Shown: positions 9,398-34,305 of the stretch, in pieces
How positions within the stretch are numbered: position 1 is the first letter of the stretch
How the letters are laid out: every line of letters starts with the position of its first letter
From: a virus
Reading direction: 5' to 3' (one strand)
IMG/VR virus record: IMGVR_UViG_3300005253_000050
Span: 29,601 to 93,600 of that record
DNA: 64,000 nucleotides
Notes under the pieces: generated by a model
Seen by the model: the letters and a program-made list of their open reading frames with translations, nothing else
What the model was told of the DNA's origin: nothing
The model's database searches: none
Position numbers and translations under genes: made by a program

Positions 9398-9647
9398 AAA
9401 GACCTCGGCCGGACTCCTGGCGGCACTTTTTCCTTGCATCGCGCTGGCTTCTGTGGCAAAGATAACAGACACACGAGGACGCCGCCATGGGAGCCAAGAG
9501 AATGATGGGTGATTACACGGACTTGTACGCTGCTGGTGTTGCTGGTGGACCCGGGGGAGGGGGGTTAACGTTTCCGACCTTCTTCGTCTGGAAAGCATGC
9601 CTAGCAGGGTGCGGTATAGGTACACAATATATAAAAAGGTCGAGGCC

Positions 9648-10433
9648 TTGAAGGTTGTCGGATACATTAGGGTCTCGACAGAAGACCAAGCCAGAGAGGG
9701 AGTCTCACTCGAAAACCAGATTTCGAGGCTCCGCTCATACTGCAGCCTCCACGGCCATGAGCTCGTCGCCGTCTATGAGGACCGCGGCGCCTCTGGCAAG
9801 GATCTCTCCCGCTTGGGAGCCCAGGCCGCCTTTGCCGCTCTCGAGCGCGGCGACGCCGAGGGGCTGTTGGTCACTCACCTCGACCGCCTCTCCCGCAGCC
9901 TCCGCGACTTCCTTTATTTGGTCGACACCCATTTCGGCCCCGGGTGCAGGTTCTCGCTGCTCTGCATCGACAACCAGCTGGACACGAGCACGCCCACCGG
10001 CCGGATGATCGCCTCGGTGCTGGCGACCGTGGCCCAGTGGCAGCGCGAGGAGGACGTGGAGCGCGTCAGGCGGGCTATGGCTCACAAGAAGGCCAAGGGC
10101 GAGCGCGTGGGTTCCGTGCCCTGGGGGTACCGTCTCGCCGGCGACGGCCGCACCCTCACCCCGCACTCGGAGGAGCTGCGGGTCATGATGACGGCCCTCG
10201 ACATGCGTCGTCGTGGGATGACCCTCCGAGCCATCGCCGACAAGCTCAAGGAGCTCGGCCACCGCAACCGGCGCCGCTCGACCACGTGGAACGCGAAGAC
10301 CATCTCTCGCATCATCAAGGCCGCCGAGGCATACGAGGCATCCCCCGAGAGGCAGTGGGTGGACGAGGACGCCGCGCTGGCCGCGGAGGCCGCCGCCGGC
10401 CTCCGCCCCGACGACAAGGAGCAAAAACCGTGA
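9648..10433 (+). CDS. Serine recombinase (resolvase catalytic domain plus recombinase DNA-binding domain)
   Basis: GYIRVSTEDQ with catalytic Ser, YEDRGASG, LDRLSRS, GSVPWGY. TTG start after GAGG; ATG 9597 is an alternative. Confidence 0.93.
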   Translation: MKVVGYIRVSTEDQAREGVSLENQISRLRSYCSLHGHELVAVYEDRGASGKDLSRLGAQAAFAALERGDAEGLLVTHLDRLSRSLRDFLYLVDTHFGPGCRFSLLCIDNQLDTSTPTGRMIASVLATVAQWQREEDVERVRRAMAHKKAKGERVGSVPWGYRLAGDGRTLTPHSEELRVMMTALDMRRRGMTLRAIADKLKELGHRNRRRSTTWNAKTISRIIKAAEAYEASPERQWVDEDAALAAEAAAGLRPDDKEQKP

Positions 10434-13695: not shown

Positions 13696-14034
13696 ATGAG
13701 GTATGCCCTGAAGTTGACAGACTTCGCAGGCTATCCACCCGCCACCAATACCGGGTATGCCATACGAAGGACATTGCGAAGGCTAACCGGATCTCCTCTA
13801 TTGCACAGCCGGTCCAGGGCTTGGGTGGCCGACGTCACTGGTGGCACATGGGCATTTGTTAGGCCGGCAGTTGATTATTCGACGATCAACGTTGATGCCG
13901 GGCAAAACGCAGACAAAAACTACTGGCTAATTGATGGCCATGAATACGAGGTGTCAGAACCTACATCATGGAGTGGCGTCGATCGTTATCGGTGCAGGAT
14001 AGAAGACGGAAGGATGGTGAAGATAGATGCCTAA
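13696..14034 (+). CDS. Paralog of the 13122 gene
   Basis: SRAWVA...VDYS...YWL...YEVS...SWSGVDRY. Confidence 0.75.
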   Translation: MRYALKLTDFAGYPPATNTGYAIRRTLRRLTGSPLLHSRSRAWVADVTGGTWAFVRPAVDYSTINVDAGQNADKNYWLIDGHEYEVSEPTSWSGVDRYRCRIEDGRMVKIDA

Positions 14035-15232
14035 GTTAGGATTGGGAATAGACGTCCTAACGGCAGCTCGCGAGCGCACCGCCTGGACGTTCGATACCTT
14101 CCAACGAGTATGCGTGAGCTTCAGCGGCGGCAAGGACTCCTCTGTCATGCTGCACCTTGCGATGGATGAGGCGATCAGGCGAGGGCGTCGGGTGGGCGTG
14201 CTGTTCATCGACCTGGAAGGACAGTACCAACTCACCATCGAGCACATCCAGGAGTGCATGGGCCTTTACGCAGACCACATTGACCCCTACTGGATAGCGC
14301 TCCCGTTGTCCCTCAGAAACGCGGTAAGTGTCTATGAGCCCAAGTGGCAATGCTGGGATCCGGATCGCCGTATCGACTGGATTAGGGAGCCTCCCGCCAA
14401 TGCCGTGACGGATGCTGATAGGTGGCCCTGGTTTGAGCGTGAAATGGAGTTCGAGGAGTTCGTCCCGCTGTTCAACAAGGAGTACTCCCAGGACCAGCTT
14501 ACGGCGTGCCTGGTGGGCATCAGGACGGACGAAAGCCTGAACCGATACAGGACCATCGCCAGCACCAAAAAGCAGAAGTTCGAGGGGCGACAGTGGACCA
14601 CCTACACAGGGGGCACCACCTACAACGTCTACCCGATTTACGACTGGCGAACAGAAGACATCTGGACGTACAACAGCAAGTTCGGCAAGTGCTACAATCG
14701 GCTGTACGACCGGATGCATCAGGCGGGGCTTGGTATTCACCAACAACGTATCTGCCAACCGTACGGGGATGACCAGCGCAAGGGGCTCTGGTTGTTCCAT
14801 ATCATCGAGCCCAAGACGTGGTCGCGTATTGTAGCCAGGGTCAACGGCGCCAACGGCGGTGCCTTATACTCCAAGGACAGCGGCAACATCCAGGGCATGC
14901 GAAAAATTACCTTGCCGCCCGGGCACACGTGGGAATCGTTCGCGAAGATGCTTCTGGCGTCCATGCCCGACAAGACCCGCGACCACTTTGAGGACAAGAT
15001 TGCCGTGTTTCTCCGGTGGTGGCAGTCCCGTGGATACGAGGCAATCCCAGACGAAGCGGACCGTAAACTGGAGTCAAAAAAAGAGGTGCCATCGTGGCGA
15101 AGGATTTGCAAGGCTCTTTTGAGAAACGACTACTGGTGCAAGGGGCTGAGCTTTGGGCAGACGAAGGCCCCGGCATACGAGAACTACAAGCGCATCATGA
15201 AAAAGAGGCGGGCAGCATGGGGGCTGATATGA
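14027..15232 (+). CDS. ibrA: IbrA/YbdN-like PAPS-reductase-family (PP-loop, DUF3440) protein
   Basis: VSFSGGKDS PP-loop, GIRTDES, YPIYDWRTEDIW, RICQPYGDDQR, WRRICKALLRNDYWCKGLSF. Confidence 0.92.
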   Translation: MPKLGLGIDVLTAARERTAWTFDTFQRVCVSFSGGKDSSVMLHLAMDEAIRRGRRVGVLFIDLEGQYQLTIEHIQECMGLYADHIDPYWIALPLSLRNAVSVYEPKWQCWDPDRRIDWIREPPANAVTDADRWPWFEREMEFEEFVPLFNKEYSQDQLTACLVGIRTDESLNRYRTIASTKKQKFEGRQWTTYTGGTTYNVYPIYDWRTEDIWTYNSKFGKCYNRLYDRMHQAGLGIHQQRICQPYGDDQRKGLWLFHIIEPKTWSRIVARVNGANGGALYSKDSGNIQGMRKITLPPGHTWESFAKMLLASMPDKTRDHFEDKIAVFLRWWQSRGYEAIPDEADRKLESKKEVPSWRRICKALLRNDYWCKGLSFGQTKAPAYENYKRIMKKRRAAWGLI

Positions 15233-26020: not shown

Positions 26021-26388
26021 GAGGTGCTCCCGCTGTTGTATTCACGCAGCGCCGCTGAGATGCTGGCGGCGTCCGAGCCCTCGGTGTGACACACGGAGCA
26101 GCTGATCCACCAGACATTTCGCTTGTCAGACAGCTTGCGTGTTCCGCAGGTCAAGTCCTGAGATCCACAGTCGGGGCAGTGATACTGGGACGCCTGCAGC
26201 CCATCAAACAGCCTGTCGGCCGCGATGTCCCGGCCCTCGGCCGCCCGACCCCACTGGGCGTTTGCGGTGGTGACTCGCGCCCTTGAGCTACCAGGGGACA
26301 ACTCGGATCGTCGCTGGGCGGCCTTGCTCGAGCCGACCACTGCCTGGTGATATTCCCGGAGCAGTGAAATGATCTGTGAAGCTGGCAT
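26017..26388 (-). CDS. Protein with C-terminal Lar (restriction-alleviation)-like zinc ribbon
   Basis: AAGGAG RBS; CPDCG...WWISCSVCHTEG...A...YN. Confidence 0.55.
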   Translation of the reverse strand: MPASQIISLLREYHQAVVGSSKAAQRRSELSPGSSRARVTTANAQWGRAAEGRDIAADRLFDGLQASQYHCPDCGSQDLTCGTRKLSDKRNVWWISCSVCHTEGSDAASISAALREYNSGSTS

Positions 26389-26934: not shown

Positions 26935-28737
26935 ATGGCCGCTCAGACGCCCGCACCGCCCGAATCAACAGAACTCACCGTGACGGTGATCAAGGCCGCC
27001 CCGAAGATCGATGTTGACTTCGGTCGGGCCCGGGAGGACGCCGACGAGGTGCAATGGGGACTGAGTTTCCCGCTCCCGCGTCCCTTAGATGTAGATAAAC
27101 TCCTGCTGCTCTTCTCGGTTTCGGATACGCTCCAGCAATGCGTCGACGCAATGGTGTCAAATATTGACGCCAGGGGATGGGCTCCCGAGCCTGTCCTGGA
27201 CCTCGATGCAGACGATGCCGCGGAGCAGGTAGCGACGGCGATGTATCTGGAGCGCCGGTCTCGATCCCCGGCCGCCTCAATGCCGACAGCAGAGGAGGTG
27301 GAGGAGACGCTGAAGGAGTGGCGGCGCGAGGCCCGTCTGGAGAAGGCGCTGCTCAAGCTGCGCGTCAAGGCCCTGTGCTACGAGAGCTCTTTCTCGGAGC
27401 TCCGCCAGCAGAAGCGTCGAGACCGAGAGGTGATCGGGTGGGGGGCCTGGGAAATAATCCGCAGCGACAGCGGCGATATCGTCCGCGCGAAGCACGTCCC
27501 GTCGCGCACACTCTGGCTGACTACGATCGATGACGAGGTCACCGCGACGCCGGCCTGGCTCCCGACGAGCGATGTCAGCCGCGAGGCCGTTATCGTCGAC
27601 CGGCGCTTCCGGCGGGTGATCCAGATCGACAGCGCTGGCGCCTATACCTATTTCAAGTGGTTCGGTGATCCGCGGATCATCTCGGCCAAAAGCGGGAAGC
27701 CCTACGACTCTGAGAAGGACCTCCTCGAGGCTGATGGAGAAGACCACGAGGCCGGCGAGGTCAAGGGTGAGCCCCCGAAGCCGGCGACGGAGATCTTGTG
27801 GTTCGGGACGTACTACCCGGAGGGCGCCTACCCGCAGCCACGGTGGCACGGGCTGATCCCGAACATCGTCGGCAGCCGCGAGGCGTCAGAGGACAACGCC
27901 CGGTACCTGTCGAACTCCGCCATCCCCCAGGGGCTGCTCCTGGTCTCGGACGGGCGGGTCGGCCCCTCGTCGAAGGGCAGCCTGTCGACGTTCTTCGAAT
28001 CGAACGAGGGGAATGCGCGGCAGAAGATCGCCGTGGTGGAGGCCACCACCCCGCGCGAAAACGCGATCCTTCCTGGGTCCGGCCGCGTGCAGCTCGAGTG
28101 GGTGTCGCTGCGGCAGGCCCAGCAGGACGACCTCACCTTCAGCCAGTACATCATGATGACCTCCGACCAGGTGGGCGAGGCCTTCCGCCTGCCGTCGCTG
28201 CTGCGCGGCCGGGTGAAGGACCTGAATAAAGCCAACGCCGTCGCCGTGCTGGAGTTCGCCGAAGACCAGGTGTTCGCCCCGGAGCGCCAGTCCTTCGACG
28301 ACCTCATCAATGACACCCTGGTCGCCAACTGGGGGATCCGGTTCTGGCGCTTCAAGTCCCTCGGCTCTCGCAAGCGGGATCCGGAGTCCATCGCCAAAAT
28401 CGCCGAGGCGTTCCTCCGCGCCGGCGTGGTCACCCCCGCCGAGCTGCGGGATCTTGCCGAGCAGCTGCTGGGTGTCGACCTCCCGAGCTCGGCCAGCGAC
28501 TGGCAGCACATCACTCAGCTGATGGTCACCGCCGGCCACATCCCCCCCTCGGCCAAGCCGCCGGAAACGGTGAGCCAGCCAGTCGGGCCGCCGGCGGATC
28601 CGGATGAATTGCAGGAGCCGCCGACCGGGTCCGCCGAGGACATCGCGAAACGGATCCTCAAGATGGAGGCCTTCCTTGCCACTGCCCGCCAGGCGGAGGC
28701 GATGGCCACGATGCCGGAGCCCGATGGAACTTCTTGA
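26935..28737 (+). CDS. Portal protein (PBSX/XkdE-like)
   Basis: Position and size; GWGAWEIIR...HVPS, YPQPRW, NARYLSNSAIPQGLLLV, AFRLPSLLRG...NKANA, TPAELR. Confidence 0.88.
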   Translation: MAAQTPAPPESTELTVTVIKAAPKIDVDFGRAREDADEVQWGLSFPLPRPLDVDKLLLLFSVSDTLQQCVDAMVSNIDARGWAPEPVLDLDADDAAEQVATAMYLERRSRSPAASMPTAEEVEETLKEWRREARLEKALLKLRVKALCYESSFSELRQQKRRDREVIGWGAWEIIRSDSGDIVRAKHVPSRTLWLTTIDDEVTATPAWLPTSDVSREAVIVDRRFRRVIQIDSAGAYTYFKWFGDPRIISAKSGKPYDSEKDLLEADGEDHEAGEVKGEPPKPATEILWFGTYYPEGAYPQPRWHGLIPNIVGSREASEDNARYLSNSAIPQGLLLVSDGRVGPSSKGSLSTFFESNEGNARQKIAVVEATTPRENAILPGSGRVQLEWVSLRQAQQDDLTFSQYIMMTSDQVGEAFRLPSLLRGRVKDLNKANAVAVLEFAEDQVFAPERQSFDDLINDTLVANWGIRFWRFKSLGSRKRDPESIAKIAEAFLRAGVVTPAELRDLAEQLLGVDLPSSASDWQHITQLMVTAGHIPPSAKPPETVSQPVGPPADPDELQEPPTGSAEDIAKRILKMEAFLATARQAEAMATMPEPDGTS

Positions 28738-30094
28738 GCTCCCCAGCCGCGAGGTGCTGGTGCAGCGAGGGCCAAGCGTTGGCTTCGTCGGCCCGTCCAT
28801 GGCCCGCGTCCGCATCCCCAAGGCATCCCAGGCCCAGGGTTACGTGCTGCTCCACCGCGGCGCTCACGGCGCCTGGCAGACGTTCCGCCTGACGTCGCGG
28901 AAGGAGACAGCCGCCAGGAAGCGGGCCGCCCGGGTGGCGCGGCTCATTGGCCGAAAGATTATTCTCGGTGAGCTCGTCCAGGTGGCCGGGGAGACGCAGG
29001 TGATCCGATCCATCGCCACCTACGAAACGATGTCCAAGGCCGAGCTATTCGCCCGAGCTGCAGCTGCGGCCGGCGAGGTGGCGGACATCTACAAGGCCAA
29101 GGATCCGGACCCGTACAACCCCCGGCAGTTCGACAAGATGACGGACGCCCTCGCGCGCGACCTTAACAGGGTGGCCAAGCCGGCGTTTGTAGCCACGGTC
29201 GAGAAGGCCGTGACGTCGTCCAAGATCGACTGGGCCACGGCCACCGAGAAGCAGATGGAGGCCTTCAGCAAAAAGCTCGCCGCAACTCTTGGCGTCTCTG
29301 CCGCTGCGGTCTGGAAATCGATCCGCCCCACGGTGGTTGACTCCTCCGTGACGATGGCCACCGAATCCCGCGCAGCCTTCGTGAAATCGAACAATCTCAC
29401 GGTGGACAGGGTCATCTCGCTCCAGGACAAGGCGGCCGTGACCAGGTCGGCGATGACGAACGCGCACTACGTGCGAGAGTTCGCGACCGGGCAGATGAGC
29501 CCGAGCCTGAGTTCGCAGGCCCGGGTGATCGTCCAGTCTGGAATTAGCAAAGGCGAGAGTTCCCGGATGATCGGGAAGGAGCTCCACCGGGTTCTCGGCC
29601 GGGCGGCCGGCGGCCAGACCGAGGCCTACTTCCGAATGGCTGCGAGCGCGATCAACGCCAGGTCCCGGGAGTTCTCGTCGTTGCGATCCATGCAGGACGC
29701 GGGGATCGATAAATACGAATGGAGCTCGGTGCTCGATGAGATGACCACGGAGACCTGCCGCTTCCTCGACGGCCAGGTATTCTCTGTTCAGGGCGCACTC
29801 GACCGATACAAAGCCGCCGACGCTCTAGAAGACCCCACAGACATCAAATACGAGATGCCGTGGTTCTATGACAAGCCGATCCGCGGCGGCGAGCACGACG
29901 GCAAGATGGGAATCTTTATGAACCAGCGCGGGGGGATGCAGCGTGTCGCTGTGGTTGAAAAAGGTGGCTTCGGGAAACGGGACGCGATCGGCACCTACTC
30001 CAACACCAAAAGCTCAAAGGCGTTGGAGGGAATGGGGATGCCTGCATGTCCAGGGCACAGTTTGTGACGCAGCACTACCATCCCGGTAGATTAA
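28724..30094 (+). CDS. MuF/SPP1 gp7-like head morphogenesis protein with in-frame TGA at 30065-30067 (ends at 30067 if read as stop)
   Basis: YEWSSVLDEMTTETCRFLDGQVF and P-G-H-S-L-[TGA]-R-S-T-T, matching the family motif P-x-H-x-x-C-R-S. Confidence 0.85.
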
Positions 30095-30100
30095 CCGGGA
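30081..30100 (+). promoter_or_regulatory. Candidate bacterial SECIS hairpin
   Basis: TCCCGGT-AGATTA-ACCGGGA: perfect 7-bp stem starting 13 nt after the TGA, with G at loop position 2. Confidence 0.5.
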
Positions 30101-30112
30101 CAGAGGAAGACG

Positions 30113-30451
30113 ATGAGCAACATAATCCAGCCCGGACTCTCGCACCTGATCAGCACCATGGATCTCGCCCGCATCGAGGACGCTGTCCACAAGGCGGTGA
30201 TGCGCTCGGCCGAACTGCGTGGACAAAAGATGTACACCGAGGGCAAGATCTCGCACAGCGAGTACGACCGCCGCGCGAAGTACTGCATCGAGCTCGCGCT
30301 GCGCTGGCGCAAGGAGCGTCGGTTCGCGCTCGAGCAAATCGGCGACGCGCTCAAGACCGCCCTGATCAGCTGGATCGACGGCGATGAATACGAGCCCCGC
30401 GACGGAATGTGGGCCGACCCCGACCAGAACAACCCGGCAGGTACATTATGA
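30113..30451 (+). CDS. Hypothetical protein in the head module
   Basis: GAGGAAG RBS; ATGA overlap with the next gene. Confidence 0.7.
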   Translation: MSNIIQPGLSHLISTMDLARIEDAVHKAVMRSAELRGQKMYTEGKISHSEYDRRAKYCIELALRWRKERRFALEQIGDALKTALISWIDGDEYEPRDGMWADPDQNNPAGTL

Positions 30452-33400
30452 GAATCCTGAAGTCCCTCGACCCCCACTACCTGGTGCATCGGCTCGCCTC
30501 CGATCAGATCGTTGGCGTGCTCGCTGACCGCGACCTCGGCGCCCTGGCCGATGACGACATGATGCTGGCAGACGGTGAGGTGGACCCCGACTGTGAGCCT
30601 CTCGCCCATGGCGTGGTGCGGCTCCGGAAGGGCGTGCGGTTTGCCTCTGGCGAGGCGGCCGTCGCCAAGCTCGGCGAGAAGCTCGACCCGTTCATGGCCC
30701 GGACTTTCGGTGCGTCCGCTGACCCGGTGTGGTTCCACCCGCTCAAGTCCGTGGACGCCTGGGAAGAGGCCGCCGTGGTGAAGGGGCTGGAGGTGCCAGT
30801 TCGAATCCTGAAGGCCGCCGAGGTGATTCCGGATGAGGGCGCGCTGAGCGAGCTGAGTTCTGCTGGCCTTGGCGAGGTGGCGAAGCTACTGGACTCGAAT
30901 CCAGAGAGTGAGGGCGCCGAGGAGTTGGCGGTGATCGTGAAGGCCGAGTACGATCGCCGCGGACTCGAGCCCGATGAGTCGCTGCTGATCTTCAAGGGCC
31001 TCTGGGGTTACCCCGCTGGGAAAGCCAGACTGTCGAAGCGATTGGTTGAGATGATGCCAACGCACAAGGTCTACGTTGAACCATTTGTCGGGAGTGGCGC
31101 GGTGCTATTCGCGAAAGAGAAAGTAGGCACCGAGGTTGTGAACGACACCGACCCAGCTGTGGCCGAGGCCTGGCAGGTTCTTTCTGAGTTGACCGCGCAA
31201 GATCTAAAGCGCCTCTGTGGGATGAACTGGACCGGCGATCGTGACACCTTCACGAGAATGAAAAAAGAGACCGGCGGTGACGACGTAGTCAAGCTACATC
31301 GGTTTTTCTATCTCTCTAAATTTGCTTATGGTCGGTGGCGAGGGACTGGATTTTCTCCTGAAATGCAAGGACATACGGTCACAATGGCCCGAATGCTGGA
31401 AAAGAACGCTCCCCGTGCCCAAGGCGTGGTCGCTCTTCATGGTGACTACGAGGCCGTGTGTCGTAAATACGACGGCCCAGACACGTTACACTTCCTCGAT
31501 CCTCCGTACGCTGGATATGCCTCCGCTGTGGGAGAAAAGAACTTCGACGAGGAGCGTTTTTTTAAGATGCTCAAGGAACTCAAAGGGAAGTGGATCGTCA
31601 CATACGGGGTCAAGGGCAAGCTACCCAAGATGCTCCGTGATTCCGGATTTACTGTAAAGAAGGTCACCACCCATCGTTCGATCCGGACGAGCGTCGCCTC
31701 CACGAATCCGTCTGCGGTGCTTGATCAACTGATCGCATACAACTTCGATCCGAATGCCAAGGCCGAAGACCCAGCGCTTGCCCCGACAGAAGAGCCAGCC
31801 GAGGCGCCTGTCGAAGCGGAAAAAAAAAACCTAAATTCCCCGGACGCTGAGAAGCAGGAGGGCTCGCCGGTCCTCTGTTTCTATCACGGCGATCTGGACG
31901 GCGTGGCGTCCGCCGCGGTTGTTCTTCAGGCCCACCCGGCCGCCGAGCTGGCGAGCATCAACTACGGGCAGGAGTTCCCATGGGACACCATCAAGGACCG
32001 CGAGACGGTCTACATGGTGGACTTCGGGATGCAGCCGTTCGAGGAGATGGTCAAGCTCAAGGCCGAACTCGACGAGATGGGGACCAGGTTCGTGTGGATC
32101 GACCACCACATCACCGCGCTCGAGGCCGCAGAGAAGGCGGGCTTCGAGGTCGACGGTCTCCGCGAGATCGGCCAGGCCGGCTGCGAGCTGACATGGAAGT
32201 TCATCCACCCCGACGACCCCATGCCGGAGGTGGTTCGCCTCGCTGGTCGATTCGACGTCTGGGACCACGAGGACCCGAACGTCCTGCCGGTGCACTACGC
32301 GATGGAGGCAATCCCCGAAGCCAACGACCCGAGCAGCGAGTGGTGGGCCGAGTGGCTCAAGAAGGGCGAGGGGGACTTCGCTGAGCTCGTCGCCCAGGGC
32401 AAGGCGATCCAGGGCTGGCTCGAAGAGTTCAGCGCCGGCCGGATGAGGTTCTCGTCCTTCGATGTGGACTTCGCTGGGCTCAAATGCGTGGCGGCCTGCA
32501 CCTCTCTCCCTGGGTCCATTCAATTCGAGTCGGTTGGCAAGGAGCACGACGCCGCGATCTCGTTCTGCTTTTCGCCGAGAAACCAGTGGAACGTCTCGAT
32601 GTATTCCATCAAGGAAGGCGTCGACGTCGGGAAGGTCTGCATGGACAACGGCGGCGGTGGTCACGCTGGCGCCGGCGGGTTCCAGTGCACGGAGCTGCCG
32701 TTCGACCTCCCGGCCTCCACCAAGAAGGCTTACGACCTCCGCGAGCCCCTCGCCGCCTACGCTCACGACGCCTGGTCTCGGTGGATGGATCATCTCTTCG
32801 AGCAGGCATCTCCCGACGGGACGATGGCGCCCGAAGACGTGGAGCGATGGAAGCGCCTGATCACGACCAAGTACGCCGACCTCACCGAGGATGAAAAGGA
32901 GTCCGATCGCCTCGAGGCGGACCGGTTGCTGGCGGTGATGAGCGGGCGGGACGACGAGGTCGAGAAGGCCGCAGTGGCACCGCTTGCCCCGGCCCCGGCG
33001 CTCGCCGTTTTCAAGCCGACCGAGGAGAACTCCTTCGACGACGTGAAGGAGCTGCTCGAGAAGTTCGGGACGGACGAATCACTCGGCGCCGGTGTCGGGG
33101 TCGGGCCGAAGTGGAACGGCCAGCTCGCCATCGTTCACAGCGTACCTGACGGCGTGTCGATCCACTACGAAGGCAACCCCACCGAGCAGGCTCCGAACCT
33201 CAAGGCCATCGCCGCGTCGGCCGCCAAATTCGACGACGGGTATGCTCTCATCGGCGAGGTGGTGGAGGCTGACATCGGCGCGGTGTTCATGGCGCGCGAC
33301 GTGCTCCACTGGGCGGGTGTCGACCACTCGGCCGAGCCGTGGTCTGCGCGACAGAAGATCCTAGACCAGGCGGTCCCGCAGGCGACCGCCGCCATCGCCC

Positions 33401-34305
33401 CCGCCCCCGCTCGGCTGGTTCATTCAGCCGACACTTTGAAGGCCGCGATCACCTGGGCGGCCGAGGTTCCGGGATCCGTCGGGGCGGTGATCACCCCCGC
33501 TGATTCAGTCGCGACGCCAGGTGGATCCGCACCTCAGATTGCCGAGGTTCGGACCCCTCGGATCGTCAACGCGATGGTGGTCGGAGCGGATTCGAATCCG
33601 GATGGATCCAACGTCTATCAGTGCGCCGTCGGGCCGCTTTCGGATTCGGAGTCAGATCGTCTTAAAGAGGTGGTCGAGGTCGGTGGGCGGAACTATGCAA
33701 TCGTCGGATCTGTGTGTACACCTTCTGTGAATGCCTCTGTGGGCGATACACTAAGAGTGGAAGTGGGCGAAATATTGGTGGTTGACAGCGAAGATTCGGC
33801 CGCGATAGGATGGGACTCATCAAAGGTACTCGAGCGGGTGCACGTAAAACCCGCGACGGTATCCGAAGTTCGAGCACTGGCGCGACCACATGAGATCCAG
33901 AAACTCTGCAAAATCCTCAAGCGCGATTCGGAGCGGCATTACATCCTCAGTGTTGTGCTCGAGCCGAACGATGGCAAGGGCGAAGCACCACTGGATCCCG
34001 ACGCCCACAACGATATTTACTCCGACGACGAGATCTGGGATGCCTGCGTGTATTGGTACGAGCAGGGCGCCGGCCTTGGCGTCATGCATGAGCGCGGAGC
34101 GACCACCTCAGAGCTGCTCCCGGTCCACAATATCATCGCCCCGGTCGACATGGAGATCGGCGGCGAGTTTGTGCGGGCTGGTTCGTGGCTCATTGGATCT
34201 CTCGTCCTATCTGCCGACCTCTGGCAGCGGATTGAATCTGGGGAGCTCAACGCGTGGAGCGTTGATGGACGAGCGCTTCGGCGCCCCGAGGCAATAGCAG
34301 CTTGA
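30448..34305 (+). CDS. Polyprotein: unknown N-domain + D12/Dam-like N6-adenine methyltransferase + DHH/DHHA1 phosphoesterase + RyR-like helical domain + degenerate ATP-dependent ligase fold + XkdF-like prohead protease
   Basis: GYPAGK/YVEPFVGSG/FLDPPY; YHGDLDG/WIDHH/GGGGHAGAGGF; KWNG/LIGE/ARDVL; SVVLEP/DAHND/GVMH/GSWL/WQRIESGELNAWSVDG. Confidence 0.88.
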   Translation: MRILKSLDPHYLVHRLASDQIVGVLADRDLGALADDDMMLADGEVDPDCEPLAHGVVRLRKGVRFASGEAAVAKLGEKLDPFMARTFGASADPVWFHPLKSVDAWEEAAVVKGLEVPVRILKAAEVIPDEGALSELSSAGLGEVAKLLDSNPESEGAEELAVIVKAEYDRRGLEPDESLLIFKGLWGYPAGKARLSKRLVEMMPTHKVYVEPFVGSGAVLFAKEKVGTEVVNDTDPAVAEAWQVLSELTAQDLKRLCGMNWTGDRDTFTRMKKETGGDDVVKLHRFFYLSKFAYGRWRGTGFSPEMQGHTVTMARMLEKNAPRAQGVVALHGDYEAVCRKYDGPDTLHFLDPPYAGYASAVGEKNFDEERFFKMLKELKGKWIVTYGVKGKLPKMLRDSGFTVKKVTTHRSIRTSVASTNPSAVLDQLIAYNFDPNAKAEDPALAPTEEPAEAPVEAEKKNLNSPDAEKQEGSPVLCFYHGDLDGVASAAVVLQAHPAAELASINYGQEFPWDTIKDRETVYMVDFGMQPFEEMVKLKAELDEMGTRFVWIDHHITALEAAEKAGFEVDGLREIGQAGCELTWKFIHPDDPMPEVVRLAGRFDVWDHEDPNVLPVHYAMEAIPEANDPSSEWWAEWLKKGEGDFAELVAQGKAIQGWLEEFSAGRMRFSSFDVDFAGLKCVAACTSLPGSIQFESVGKEHDAAISFCFSPRNQWNVSMYSIKEGVDVGKVCMDNGGGGHAGAGGFQCTELPFDLPASTKKAYDLREPLAAYAHDAWSRWMDHLFEQASPDGTMAPEDVERWKRLITTKYADLTEDEKESDRLEADRLLAVMSGRDDEVEKAAVAPLAPAPALAVFKPTEENSFDDVKELLEKFGTDESLGAGVGVGPKWNGQLAIVHSVPDGVSIHYEGNPTEQAPNLKAIAASAAKFDDGYALIGEVVEADIGAVFMARDVLHWAGVDHSAEPWSARQKILDQAVPQATAAIAPAPARLVHSADTLKAAITWAAEVPGSVGAVITPADSVATPGGSAPQIAEVRTPRIVNAMVVGADSNPDGSNVYQCAVGPLSDSESDRLKEVVEVGGRNYAIVGSVCTPSVNASVGDTLRVEVGEILVVDSEDSAAIGWDSSKVLERVHVKPATVSEVRALARPHEIQKLCKILKRDSERHYILSVVLEPNDGKGEAPLDPDAHNDIYSDDEIWDACVYWYEQGAGLGVMHERGATTSELLPVHNIIAPVDMEIGGEFVRAGSWLIGSLVLSADLWQRIESGELNAWSVDGRALRRPEAIAA

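What the first reader, a model, noticed from the sequence alone, without database searches (positions are those of the whole stretch)
30038..30100. Candidate phage selenoprotein: TGA at the conserved Cys of the MuF head protein, followed by a SECIS-like hairpin
Seen: the frame reads M-P-A-C-P-G-H-S-L-[TGA 30065]-R-S-T-T-I-P-V-D-[TAA 30092]. Established: MuF/gp7 domains end in P-x-H-x-x-C-R-(S/C), so the TGA falls exactly on the conserved Cys and the motif resumes after it. Seen: a perfect hairpin TCCCGGT-AGATTA-ACCGGGA begins 13 nt downstream, with its loop 20 nt from the TGA and G at loop position 2. This fits the general bacterial SECIS geometry. TGA is a normal stop elsewhere in the window. 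Inference: the host Sec machinery inserts selenocysteine into a virion metal-binding site, possibly tying head assembly to selenium status. A nonsense mutation or sequencing error is the alternative.
Basis: partly seen in the sequence, partly recalled or inferred. Interest (0 to 1): 0.85.

Follow-up and report, generated by a model that had tools for sequence, protein, structure and literature searches.

The report
Probable selenocysteine codon in phage MuF
An uncultured 94-kb marine-sediment phage, like many other lineages of its family, has a UGA "stop" exactly where its MuF head protein has an almost invariant cysteine, and coding continues after it, so the codon is most likely read as selenocysteine, which I found reported for no bacteriophage.

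Summary
TGA 30065-30067 sits on the conserved Cys of the MuF/gp7 C-terminal motif (PP-x-H-G-x-C-R-S/T). The frame continues R-S-T-T-I-P-V-D-TAA, and a perfect 7-bp hairpin (30081-30100) follows.

- **Not an error:** Logan contigs of three runs (two samples, one study; possibly this DNA's source) match 2 kb with no difference.
- **Not a code change:** TGA is this phage's commonest ordinary stop.
- **Recurrent:** 20 of 166 family proteins end exactly before this Cys and none ends 1-6 residues after it. A tree needs at least 8 stop/Cys switches.
- **Decoded or split:** in two other lineages with DNA (L012, L015), TGA is followed by R-S...P and 359 or 604 more in-frame codons. The read-through products align end to end with uninterrupted Cys-form orthologs.

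This is the Sec/Cys-pair signature, so UGA is most likely decoded as selenocysteine (about 0.65).

The hairpin adds little. It fits the published bacterial SECIS model, but so do 27 of 102 Cys-form controls, and one TGA lineage fails. The host is unknown and the phage carries no Sec machinery, so the decoder is untested.

This scan reached the same reading on at least 8 other genomes. I found no paper reporting a phage selenoprotein.

The parts
26935..28737 (+). Portal protein gene, immediately upstream of MuF
   Evidence: Pfam PF04860 Phage_portal, E 8e-07, below the curated cut-off; ORF list
28724..30064 (+). MuF/SPP1-gp7-type head morphogenesis gene up to the UGA (447 codons, called as P0002)
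   Evidence: PF04233 match; family profile search with 1730 hits; AlphaFold model, mean pLDDT 86.9
29756..29758 (+). TGC for the invariant upstream Cys (T-E-T-C-R-F-L-D-G); with His 30056-58 and the UGA position it makes the conserved C...H-x-x-C set
   Evidence: C103 is invariant in 146 of 146 sequences. A role as metal ligand is inference only
30056..30058 (+). CAC for the invariant His of P-x-H-x-x-[C/U]
   Evidence: H203 is invariant in 146 of 146 sequences
30065..30067 (+). In-frame TGA at the conserved Cys codon; proposed Sec codon
   Evidence: Sequence; identical in contigs of 3 runs; the close relative L001 has TGC here; 20 of 166 family proteins end exactly here
30068..30094 (+). Post-UGA tail R-S-T-T-I-P-V-D plus TAA stop; matches the family consensus R-[ST]-T-[ILVT]-[VIL]-P-[VDE]
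   Evidence: L001 encodes R-S-T-T-I-P-V-V using different Arg, Ser and Val codons
30081..30100 (+). Perfect 7-bp hairpin with loop AGAUUA, 20 nt after the UGA; candidate SECIS. It spans the TAA and ends 2 nt before the next gene's Shine-Dalgarno
   Evidence: It passes the bSECIS model of PMC13188914 and is absent in the Cys-form relative L001, but 27 of 102 Cys-form controls also pass
30113..30451 (+). Next gene (112 aa, no Pfam family), preceded by GAGGAA at 30103-30108; conserved in L001

Best explanation
The MuF (SPP1 gp7 / Mu F type) minor head protein of this phage is a selenoprotein. The host's SelB and Sec-tRNA(Sec) read UGA 30065-67 as selenocysteine in place of the family's near-invariant Cys in P-P-x-H-G-x-C-R-S/T. 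Translation then adds R-S-T-T-I-P-V-D and stops at TAA 30092. The hairpin 30081-30100 is the likely SelB-binding SECIS.

Shown: the UGA is real. It lies on the Cys column. The same substitution recurs in many lineages of the family. Sequence after it stays conserved and in frame.

Inferred: the decoder is the Sec machinery, the hairpin is its SECIS, and the Cys/Sec belongs with the invariant upstream Cys and His to a metal or redox site.

Low Sec-insertion efficiency would be tolerable, because gp7/MuF-type proteins are low-copy virion proteins (established knowledge of SPP1 gp7).
For: 1. The TGA is real and fixed: 0 differences over 2001 bases in contigs of 3 runs from 2 samples.

2. It falls exactly on the Cys column: 132 Cys and 14 ends in 146 aligned sequences.

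3. It recurs. Window-clade relatives P0003, P0004, P0006, P0007 and P0008 (56-80% identity) all end at the same place. Ten further 50%-identity cluster representatives do too. In total 20 of 166 end exactly before the Cys, and none ends 1-6 residues after it.

4. The tree needs at least 8 strongly supported stop/Cys changes. The window's clade (support 99) holds 6 stop and 2 Cys forms, with stop forms branching first.

5. A DNA pattern not conditioned on the post-stop sequence pulled 6 IMG/VR loci. All were true family members, forming two further lineages. Both have TGA, then R-S-x-x-[LV]-P, and then 359 (L012) or 604 (L015) open in-frame codons.

6. The read-through products align end to end with uninterrupted Cys-form orthologs. 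P0158 (1043 aa) matches P0160, P0163 and P0164 (1049-1066 aa) end to end and P0161/P0162 over its first ~685 residues. P0157 matches P0172-P0174 and P0176-P0179 (714-790 aa). Each of these orthologs, and P0171/P0175 (matched in two blocks), has Cys where these have TGA.

7. Very close stop/Cys pairs exist. P0142 is 100% identical to the first 359 aa of P0170. P0093 and P0169 are 91% identical. The window and L001 are 84% identical.

8. TGA is otherwise a normal stop in this phage and in L012 and L015.

9. The window hairpin meets all four constraints of the published bSECIS model (PMC13188914). Its Cys-form relative L001 lacks it. A hairpin that good occurs in only 3 of 102 Cys controls.

10. 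The source is marine sediment.
Against: - No SECIS is demonstrated. 27 of 102 Cys-form controls pass the same bSECIS model, and the L012 lineage fails it.
- Mean folding energy after the Cys codon in controls (-13.7 kcal/mol) is as low as in TGA forms.
- No covariation appears in the L015 clade.
- The host is unknown, so selA/B/C/D cannot be checked. The phage encodes no SelA and no tRNA-Sec above cut-off, only tRNA-Met.
- Switching is very frequent, including a 100%-identical pair. That is unusual if each Cys-to-Sec change needs a new SECIS, and it also fits recurrent tolerated nonsense mutations.
- No TGA form was found among GTDB species-representative genomes: 8 hits, all chance.
- In L012 and L015 a GTG or TTG 4-7 codons after the TGA could restart translation of the second part.
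- There is no protein-level evidence.
Confidence: 0.65

Rival explanations
1. Genuine termination. The UGA is a real stop, and these phages make a MuF that lacks the last Cys and its tail. In the fusion lineages the C-terminal domain is made separately by re-initiation at a nearby GTG or TTG, so the gene is split. The post-stop tail is a remnant.
For: - Gene callers split L015 this way (P0159, 598 aa, starts 7 codons after the TGA).
- Very recent stop/Cys pairs look like tip polymorphisms.
- The hairpin is not discriminating.
- No Sec machinery is known for the host.
- TGY to TGA is a single base change.
Against: - Stops occur at this one codon and not at neighbouring ones: 20 ends before the Cys, 0 ends 1-6 residues after it. 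Only 5 proteins end earlier (P0010 diverges instead), and those may be contig-edge fragments.
- The stop state persists across deep divergence: 56% identity in the window clade, and branch lengths of about 1.3 for L012 and L015.
- Despite that divergence, all three DNA-verified lineages keep R-S...P directly after the stop and stay in the same frame.
- The short forms, including this window, have nothing to re-initiate.
- The column is Cys in every family member that continues past it, so loss of the residue should be costly.
Confidence: 0.17
2. The UGA is translated, but not as selenocysteine. One route is near-cognate read-through, since UGA-C is a weak terminator context in E. coli (from memory). 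Another is a SelB- or suppressor-dependent insertion of Cys, as described for tRNA(Sec)-like tRNA(Cys) species (from memory). Either would give a minor full-length product beside a truncated one.
For: - Conservation after the UGA shows translation, not which residue is inserted.
- The SECIS evidence is weak.
- Facile stop/Cys toggling is easier if no dedicated SECIS is needed.
- UGA is followed by C in the window and L012, and by A in L015.
Against: - Ordinary read-through inserts Trp, which would destroy an invariant Cys site.
- Nothing would then tie the stop to the Cys codon rather than to the domain boundary 8 codons later.
- The phage carries no suppressor tRNA.
- Stop-at-Cys with Cys homologs is the criterion used to find selenoproteins (PMC13188914).
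Confidence: 0.13
3. Artefact or fresh lesion: a sequencing or assembly error, or a recent inactivating nonsense mutation in this one phage population.
For: Metagenome-assembled genome. A single base separates TGA from TGC or TGT.
Against: Independent Logan contigs of 3 runs from 2 samples agree at 12x and 30x depth, though they may be the source data. Relatives at 78-80% identity from other sources share the stop. The genome is complete with terminal repeats.
Confidence: 0.03
4. Genome-wide reassignment of TGA to a sense codon (code 4 or 25, or phage late-gene recoding).
For: Stop-codon recoding is known in some phages (from memory).
Against: TGA ends 53 of 95 crude gene calls here, many as ATGA overlaps. 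No other coding-like in-frame TGA extension was found, apart from an adjacent gene after TerL. The genome is 62% G+C, and there is no suppressor tRNA. L012 and L015 show the same pattern.
Confidence: 0.01

Closest known systems
Bacterial selenoprotein genes with an in-ORF SECIS read by SelB (prototype E. coli fdhF; consensus bSECIS model reviewed in PMC13188914)
   Same: In-frame UGA aligned to Cys in homologs, conservation on both sides of it, and a stem-loop 16-37 nt downstream with G in the first two loop positions and MFE of -7.5 kcal/mol or lower (window: loop AGAUUA, spacing 20, -11.5 kcal/mol).
   Different: The gene is in a phage and encodes a virion or head-assembly protein, not an oxidoreductase. 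The Sec is 9 residues from the C-terminus, so the hairpin spans the true stop and the intergenic spacer. The SECIS is not statistically separable from Cys-form controls. The host machinery is unknown.
Phage Mu F / SPP1 gp7 head-morphogenesis proteins (Pfam PF04233) and MuF fusion proteins ('MuF polymorphic toxins', PMC5576092; polyvalent proteins, PMC5512222)
   Same: Position right after the portal gene, the MuF domain, the C-terminal P-x-H-x-x-C-R motif, and relatives fused to C-terminal effector domains. The L015 tail carries HEFGH and matches DUF6782 metallopeptidase.
   Different: The invariant Cys codon is replaced by UGA. This subfamily also has a 270-aa N-terminal extension and an insert of about 80 aa before the motif.
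Selenoproteins of eukaryotic viruses (discussed in PMC6769590)
   Same: A virus-encoded gene that relies on host Sec machinery to read UGA.
   Different: Those are captured cellular enzyme genes with a 3'-UTR eukaryotic SECIS. This is a native phage structural gene with bacterial-type decoding.
Stop-codon reassignment in phages (recoded late genes; from memory, not checked here)
   Same: In-frame stop codons in phage structural genes.
   Different: Here a single codon in a single gene is affected, always at a Cys position, and TGA remains the commonest stop.

Membership tests
Phage_Mu_F / SPP1 gp7 family (PF04233) | Sequence match to the MuF domain model | tested here: met
   The window protein scores 28.8 bits against a 29.6 cut-off, just under it. 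PF04233 is precomputed for its own call P0002 and for relatives. P0005 scores 35.4 bits. The family profile recovers 1730 proteins.
Phage_Mu_F / SPP1 gp7 family (PF04233) | Gene placed directly downstream of the portal gene in the head module | tested here: met
   Portal 26935-28737, MuF 28724-30094, and then a protease-containing polyprotein 30409-34305.
Phage_Mu_F / SPP1 gp7 family (PF04233) | C-terminal P-x-H-x-x-C-R-(S/T/C) motif | tested here: met
   P-G-H-S-L-[UGA]-R-S aligns to the motif, with UGA in the Cys column.
Bacterial selenoprotein (Sec/Cys family) | In-frame UGA aligned to Cys in homologs | tested here: met
Bacterial selenoprotein (Sec/Cys family) | Protein-level conservation continues downstream of the UGA in the same frame | tested here: met
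   Window: RSTTIPVD. L012: RSEALPEV plus 351 further codons. L015: RSWTVPV plus 597 further codons. Both long forms are collinear with Cys-form orthologs.
Bacterial selenoprotein (Sec/Cys family) | bSECIS stem-loop after the UGA (loop 3-9 nt, stem at least 4 bp, G in the first two loop positions, spacing 16-37 nt, MFE -7.5 kcal/mol or lower) | tested here: inconclusive
   The window and L015 pass and L012 fails. 27 of 102 Cys-form controls also pass. No covariation was found. The model is from PMC13188914.
Bacterial selenoprotein (Sec/Cys family) | The decoding organism has selA, selB, selC and selD | not testable with these tools
   The host is unknown. The phage records themselves have no SelA and no tRNA-Sec above cut-off.
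Bacterial selenoprotein (Sec/Cys family) | Selenium found in the protein | not testable with these tools
   Needs 75Se labelling or mass spectrometry.
Phage with reassigned TGA (alternative genetic code) | TGA used as a sense codon across many genes and avoided as a stop | tested here: not met
   TGA is the stop of 53 of 95 crude genes, and no other credible in-frame TGA exists.

The most novel reading that the evidence does not exclude
MuF is a phage-borne selenoprotein family in which Sec and Cys toggle rapidly. At least 8 switches are needed on the tree, and some pairs are identical up to the codon. Under this reading the state tracks whether the current host has Sec machinery. The amount of full-length MuF, and in the fusion lineages the amount of injected effector behind the UGA, would then depend on host SelB and selenium supply: a selenium-gated virion component.
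Probability: 0.25. Interest if true: 0.9.

Novelty: new variant of a known kind. Interest (0 to 1): 0.82.

Why it matters
Selenocysteine decoding is well known in cells and in a few eukaryotic viruses. I found no report of a natural bacteriophage selenoprotein: phrase searches for it returned only papers on eukaryotic viruses. A 2026 review of prokaryotic selenoproteomes does not contain the words phage or virus.

If confirmed, this would have four consequences:
- Phages can depend on a non-universal host translation system for a virion protein.
- A new and widespread selenoprotein family would be added (about 5-13% of a large MuF subfamily).
- The residue would sit in a conserved Cys/His site of a structural protein rather than in a classical oxidoreductase.
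- Annotation would need correcting, because gene callers now truncate these MuF genes or split the MuF-effector fusions in two.

It would also give a sequence-based host-range marker, namely Sec-using hosts. The system is easy to test, because the region from UGA to hairpin is only 36 nt.

Tried and rejected
- **Encoding DNA of the stop-form proteins.** The DNA of P0003, P0004, P0006-P0008 and the other stop-form proteins could not be fetched. Their stop codon and tails remain unseen.
- **Metagenome scan**: only the already known Cys-form contig plus chance hits.
- **IMG/VR scans**: no TGA lineage beyond the L008/12/14 and L015/16/17 sets.
- **GTDB genome scan with the TGA pattern**: 8 hits, all chance. 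No TGA-form prophage, so no host to test.
- **Myxococcota, 401 genomes**: 9 strong family hits, all without internal stops. This gives no information on this phage's host.
- **INPHARED phages**: only a 31%-identity hit in Rhizobium phage P11VFA.
- **RNA evidence:** no RNA holder listed among the sequencing runs.
- **Rfam:** nothing on L012 or L015. The tRNA-Sec model gives only hits of 14-16 bits in the phage records.
- **Hairpin stability as a discriminator:** rejected, because Cys-form controls fold as well.
- **RNAalifold on the L015 clade:** no conserved structure.
- **BLAST and HMM link between the C-terminal domains of L012/L015 and those of other fusion proteins:** marginal or absent. 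It was superseded by the true orthologs found.
- **Structure searches with the AlphaFold model:** Foldseek against PDB gave no match at E of 0.001 or better, and VIA-align gave only helical-bundle noise. Coordinates are not exposed, so the proximity of Cys, His and Sec could not be measured.
- **Protein atlas**: only other MuF clusters, no host.
no Pfam support.
- **Other in-frame TGA genes in the genome:** none credible.

Full report
**1. What is in the sequence**

The window is bases 29601-93600 of a complete 93.6-kb IMG/VR phage record with direct terminal repeats. It is 62% G+C.

At 28724-30064 (+), directly after the portal gene (26935-28737), lies a 447-codon MuF/SPP1-gp7-type gene. Pfam PF04233 scores 28.8 bits, just under the 29.6 cut-off. 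The frame ends ...M-P-A-C-P-G-H-S-L, then TGA (30065-67), and then continues R-S-T-T-I-P-V-D to TAA (30092-94).

A perfect 7-bp hairpin, TCCCGGT-AGATTA-ACCGGGA, occupies 30081-30100. Its loop starts 20 nt after the UGA and has G at loop position 2. It folds at about -12 kcal/mol, z = -2.6.

**2. Is the TGA real and special?**

Logan contigs of three runs match 29000-31000 without a single difference. The runs come from two samples of one marine-sediment study, at depths 12x, 30x and 4x. These runs may be the source of the assembly. They exclude an assembler artefact but not a rare variant.

TGA is not reassigned. It terminates 53 of 95 crude gene calls, many in ATGA overlaps. No other gene has a credible coding extension behind a TGA. 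The genome's only tRNA is tRNA-Met.

**3. The family**

A profile search of 1.8 billion cluster representatives found 1730 relatives. In an alignment of 146 of them the C-terminus reads P-P-x-H-G-x-C-R-[ST]-T-x-x-P. His is invariant, as is an upstream Cys (T-E-x-C-R).

The column under the window's TGA is Cys in 132 sequences and the end of the protein in 14.
- 136 have Cys there: 73 with a 7-15 residue tail and 63 with a long fused C-terminal domain.
- 20 end exactly before it.
- None ends 1-6 residues after it.

The window's own clade is mostly stop forms. P0003, P0004, P0006, P0007 and P0008 (56-80% identity; Logan and JGI sources) all end ...H-G-L or ...H-G-H.

**4. Phylogeny**

A tree of 47 C-terminal domains used IQ-TREE quick mode. 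The Cys and tail columns were excluded, because the rows were cut before the Cys. Parsimony needs 12 stop/Cys changes, and at least 8 are forced by strongly supported branches.

The window sits in a clade with support 99 that holds 6 stop and 2 Cys forms. Stop forms P0007 and P0008 branch first. The Cys forms L001 and P0005 are nested inside, and both carry an intact C-R-S-T-x-I-P-V tail. Whichever direction the changes ran, this codon alone toggles repeatedly.

Some pairs are very close:
- P0142 (stop) is identical to the first 359 residues of P0170, a 1129-aa Cys form.
- P0093 (stop) and P0169 (Cys plus tail) are 91% identical.
- The window and L001 (TGC) are 84% identical over residues 298-495.

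**5. DNA-level tests in other lineages**

One pattern specified A-x-[VI]-x5-G-x2-D-x2-G-x-[YFW]-x17-P-x-H-x-x-TGA and put no condition on what follows. It returned six loci. All six are true family members, and they form two further lineages.

- **L008/L012/L014** read ...G-L-P-P-A-H-G-F-TGA-R-S-E-A-L-P-E-V..., and the frame stays open for 359 codons.
- **L015/L016/L017** read ...G-P-P-P-Y-H-H-L-TGA-R-S-W-T-V-P-V..., then a Pro-rich linker, and the frame stays open for 604 codons. This part contains HEFGH and matches the DUF6782 metallopeptidase family.

The same pattern ending in TGY returned 117 Cys-form loci. TGA forms are therefore about 5% of pattern-matching family members in IMG/VR. In both lineages TGA is also an ordinary stop of neighbouring genes.

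The read-through products match uninterrupted Cys-form orthologs:
- The L015 product (P0158, 1043 aa) aligns over residues 1-1043 with P0160, P0163 and P0164 (1049-1066 aa, 40-43% identity). P0161 and P0162 align over its first ~685 residues (~49%). All five read ...P-P-Y-H-[HF]-x-C-R-S-W-T-[IV]-P-V....
- The L012 product (P0157, 773 aa) aligns end to end at about 50% identity with P0172-P0174 and P0176-P0179 (714-790 aa). P0171 and P0175, which carry Hint/intein-family inserts, align in two blocks. All nine read ...P-P-Y-H-x-x-C-R-T-[TE]-M-N-P-V....

So in three independent, deeply diverged lineages a TGA has replaced the Cys codon of an otherwise intact, collinear gene.

**6. What this shows and what it does not**

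The data show one of two things. Either the UGA is decoded, or the gene is deliberately split at exactly this codon.

A stop aligned to Cys, with conservation on both sides and Cys-containing homologs, is the criterion used to discover selenoproteins (review PMC13188914). I therefore rate selenocysteine insertion as the best explanation, at about 0.65.

**7. The hairpin**

The review gives the bacterial SECIS model:
- apical loop of 3-9 nt;
- upper stem of 4-16 bp;
- a G in the first two loop positions;
- 16-37 nt between the UGA and the loop;
- MFE of -7.5 kcal/mol or lower.

The window hairpin meets all of these. So does an L015 stem-loop with loop GGU at spacing 17 and -12.7 kcal/mol. L012 has none.

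The control matters. 27 of 102 distinct Cys-form genes also pass the model after their Cys codon. Their mean 51-nt folding energy (-13.7 kcal/mol) is no weaker than that of the TGA forms. An RNAalifold run on L015 and nine Cys orthologs found no conserved or covarying structure.

Some points favour the hairpin:
- A simple perfect hairpin as good as the window's occurs in only 3 of 102 controls.
- It has about 1.7% chance expectation from the window's own hairpin density.
- It is absent from the Cys-form sister L001, where two arm positions differ.

The hairpin is therefore compatible with a SECIS and mildly unusual, but it is not evidence on its own. It also lies between the true stop and the next gene's Shine-Dalgarno (GAGGAA, 30103-30108). 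It could instead act in mRNA stability or translational coupling.

**8. Missing pieces**

The host is unknown. The phage records (G000 and those of L015, L014, L012 and L001) have no SelA and no tRNA-Sec above cut-off. A scan of one genome per GTDB species with the TGA pattern gave only chance matches. No prophage host was therefore available for a selABCD test. In 401 Myxococcota genomes the family occurs in 9, always as the Cys form. There is no RNA or protein evidence.

**9. Rivals**

- **(a) True termination or a split gene (0.17).** It is favoured by the tip-level toggling and the non-discriminating hairpin. It is disfavoured because the stop is confined to one codon, persists over deep divergence with intact in-frame tails, and occurs in short forms that have nothing to re-initiate.
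- **(b) Translation of UGA as something other than Sec (0.13).** It cannot be excluded by sequence. Ordinary Trp read-through would destroy an invariant Cys and would not explain the position.
- **(c) Error or a fresh lesion (0.03).**
- **(d) A changed genetic code (0.01).** Tested and not met.

**10. Comparison and novelty**

Mechanistically this looks like a bacterial Sec/Cys selenoprotein gene with an in-ORF or 3'-adjacent SECIS. By membership it is a MuF/gp7 head protein, whose relatives include MuF-effector fusions (PMC5576092, PMC5512222).

Literature searches found no natural phage selenoprotein. The 2026 review of prokaryotic selenoproteomes mentions neither phages nor viruses.

Within this scan the same MuF-UGA phenomenon has already been reported by other agents on at least 8 other genomes. 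One of those appears to be the L015 phage. My analysis agrees with them. It adds the Cys-form control for the SECIS model, the near-identical stop/Cys pairs and the negative GTDB scan.

Noticed in passing
Outside the window, about 3.4 kb before its start (genome G000:C1 about 26040-26182 = L028:1408-1550): Intergenic tRNA-like element. It has an acceptor-like stem GGGCCG/CGGCCC and a perfect T-arm CGGG-TTCGATT-CCCG, preceded by a 12-bp GC-rich stem. The Rfam tRNA-Sec model hits it weakly (16 bits), but the D and anticodon arms are missing, and ARAGORN calls nothing there.
   Followed up: partly
window 30409-34305 (+): A 1298-aa ORF at the prohead-protease position. It combines a D12 adenine methyltransferase, a DHH domain and an XkdF-type serine protease (Pfam).
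   Followed up: no
It is the only other coding-like in-frame extension behind a TGA in the genome, and is most simply two adjacent genes.
   Followed up: partly
P0171 (1140 aa) and P0175 (925 aa), Cys-form orthologs of the L012 MuF fusion: Both carry large insertions with precomputed Pfam hits PF07591, PF14890, PF13403 and PF14623 (I take these to be Hint/intein families; names from memory, not checked) inside the MuF protein. The alignment to P0157 breaks at residue 317 and resumes about 150-350 residues later.
   Followed up: no
window 14027-15232 (+) and 9597-10433 (+): A PAPS-reductase plus DUF3440 gene, and a serine recombinase (Resolvase domain), lie in the early region.
   Followed up: no
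L015:5118-6929 (+): The 604-codon part behind the UGA in the 99.6-kb phage carries HEFGH and matches the DUF6782 putative metallopeptidase family (28.3 bits, cut-off 27). A public gene call (P0159) treats it as a separate 598-aa protein.
   Followed up: partly
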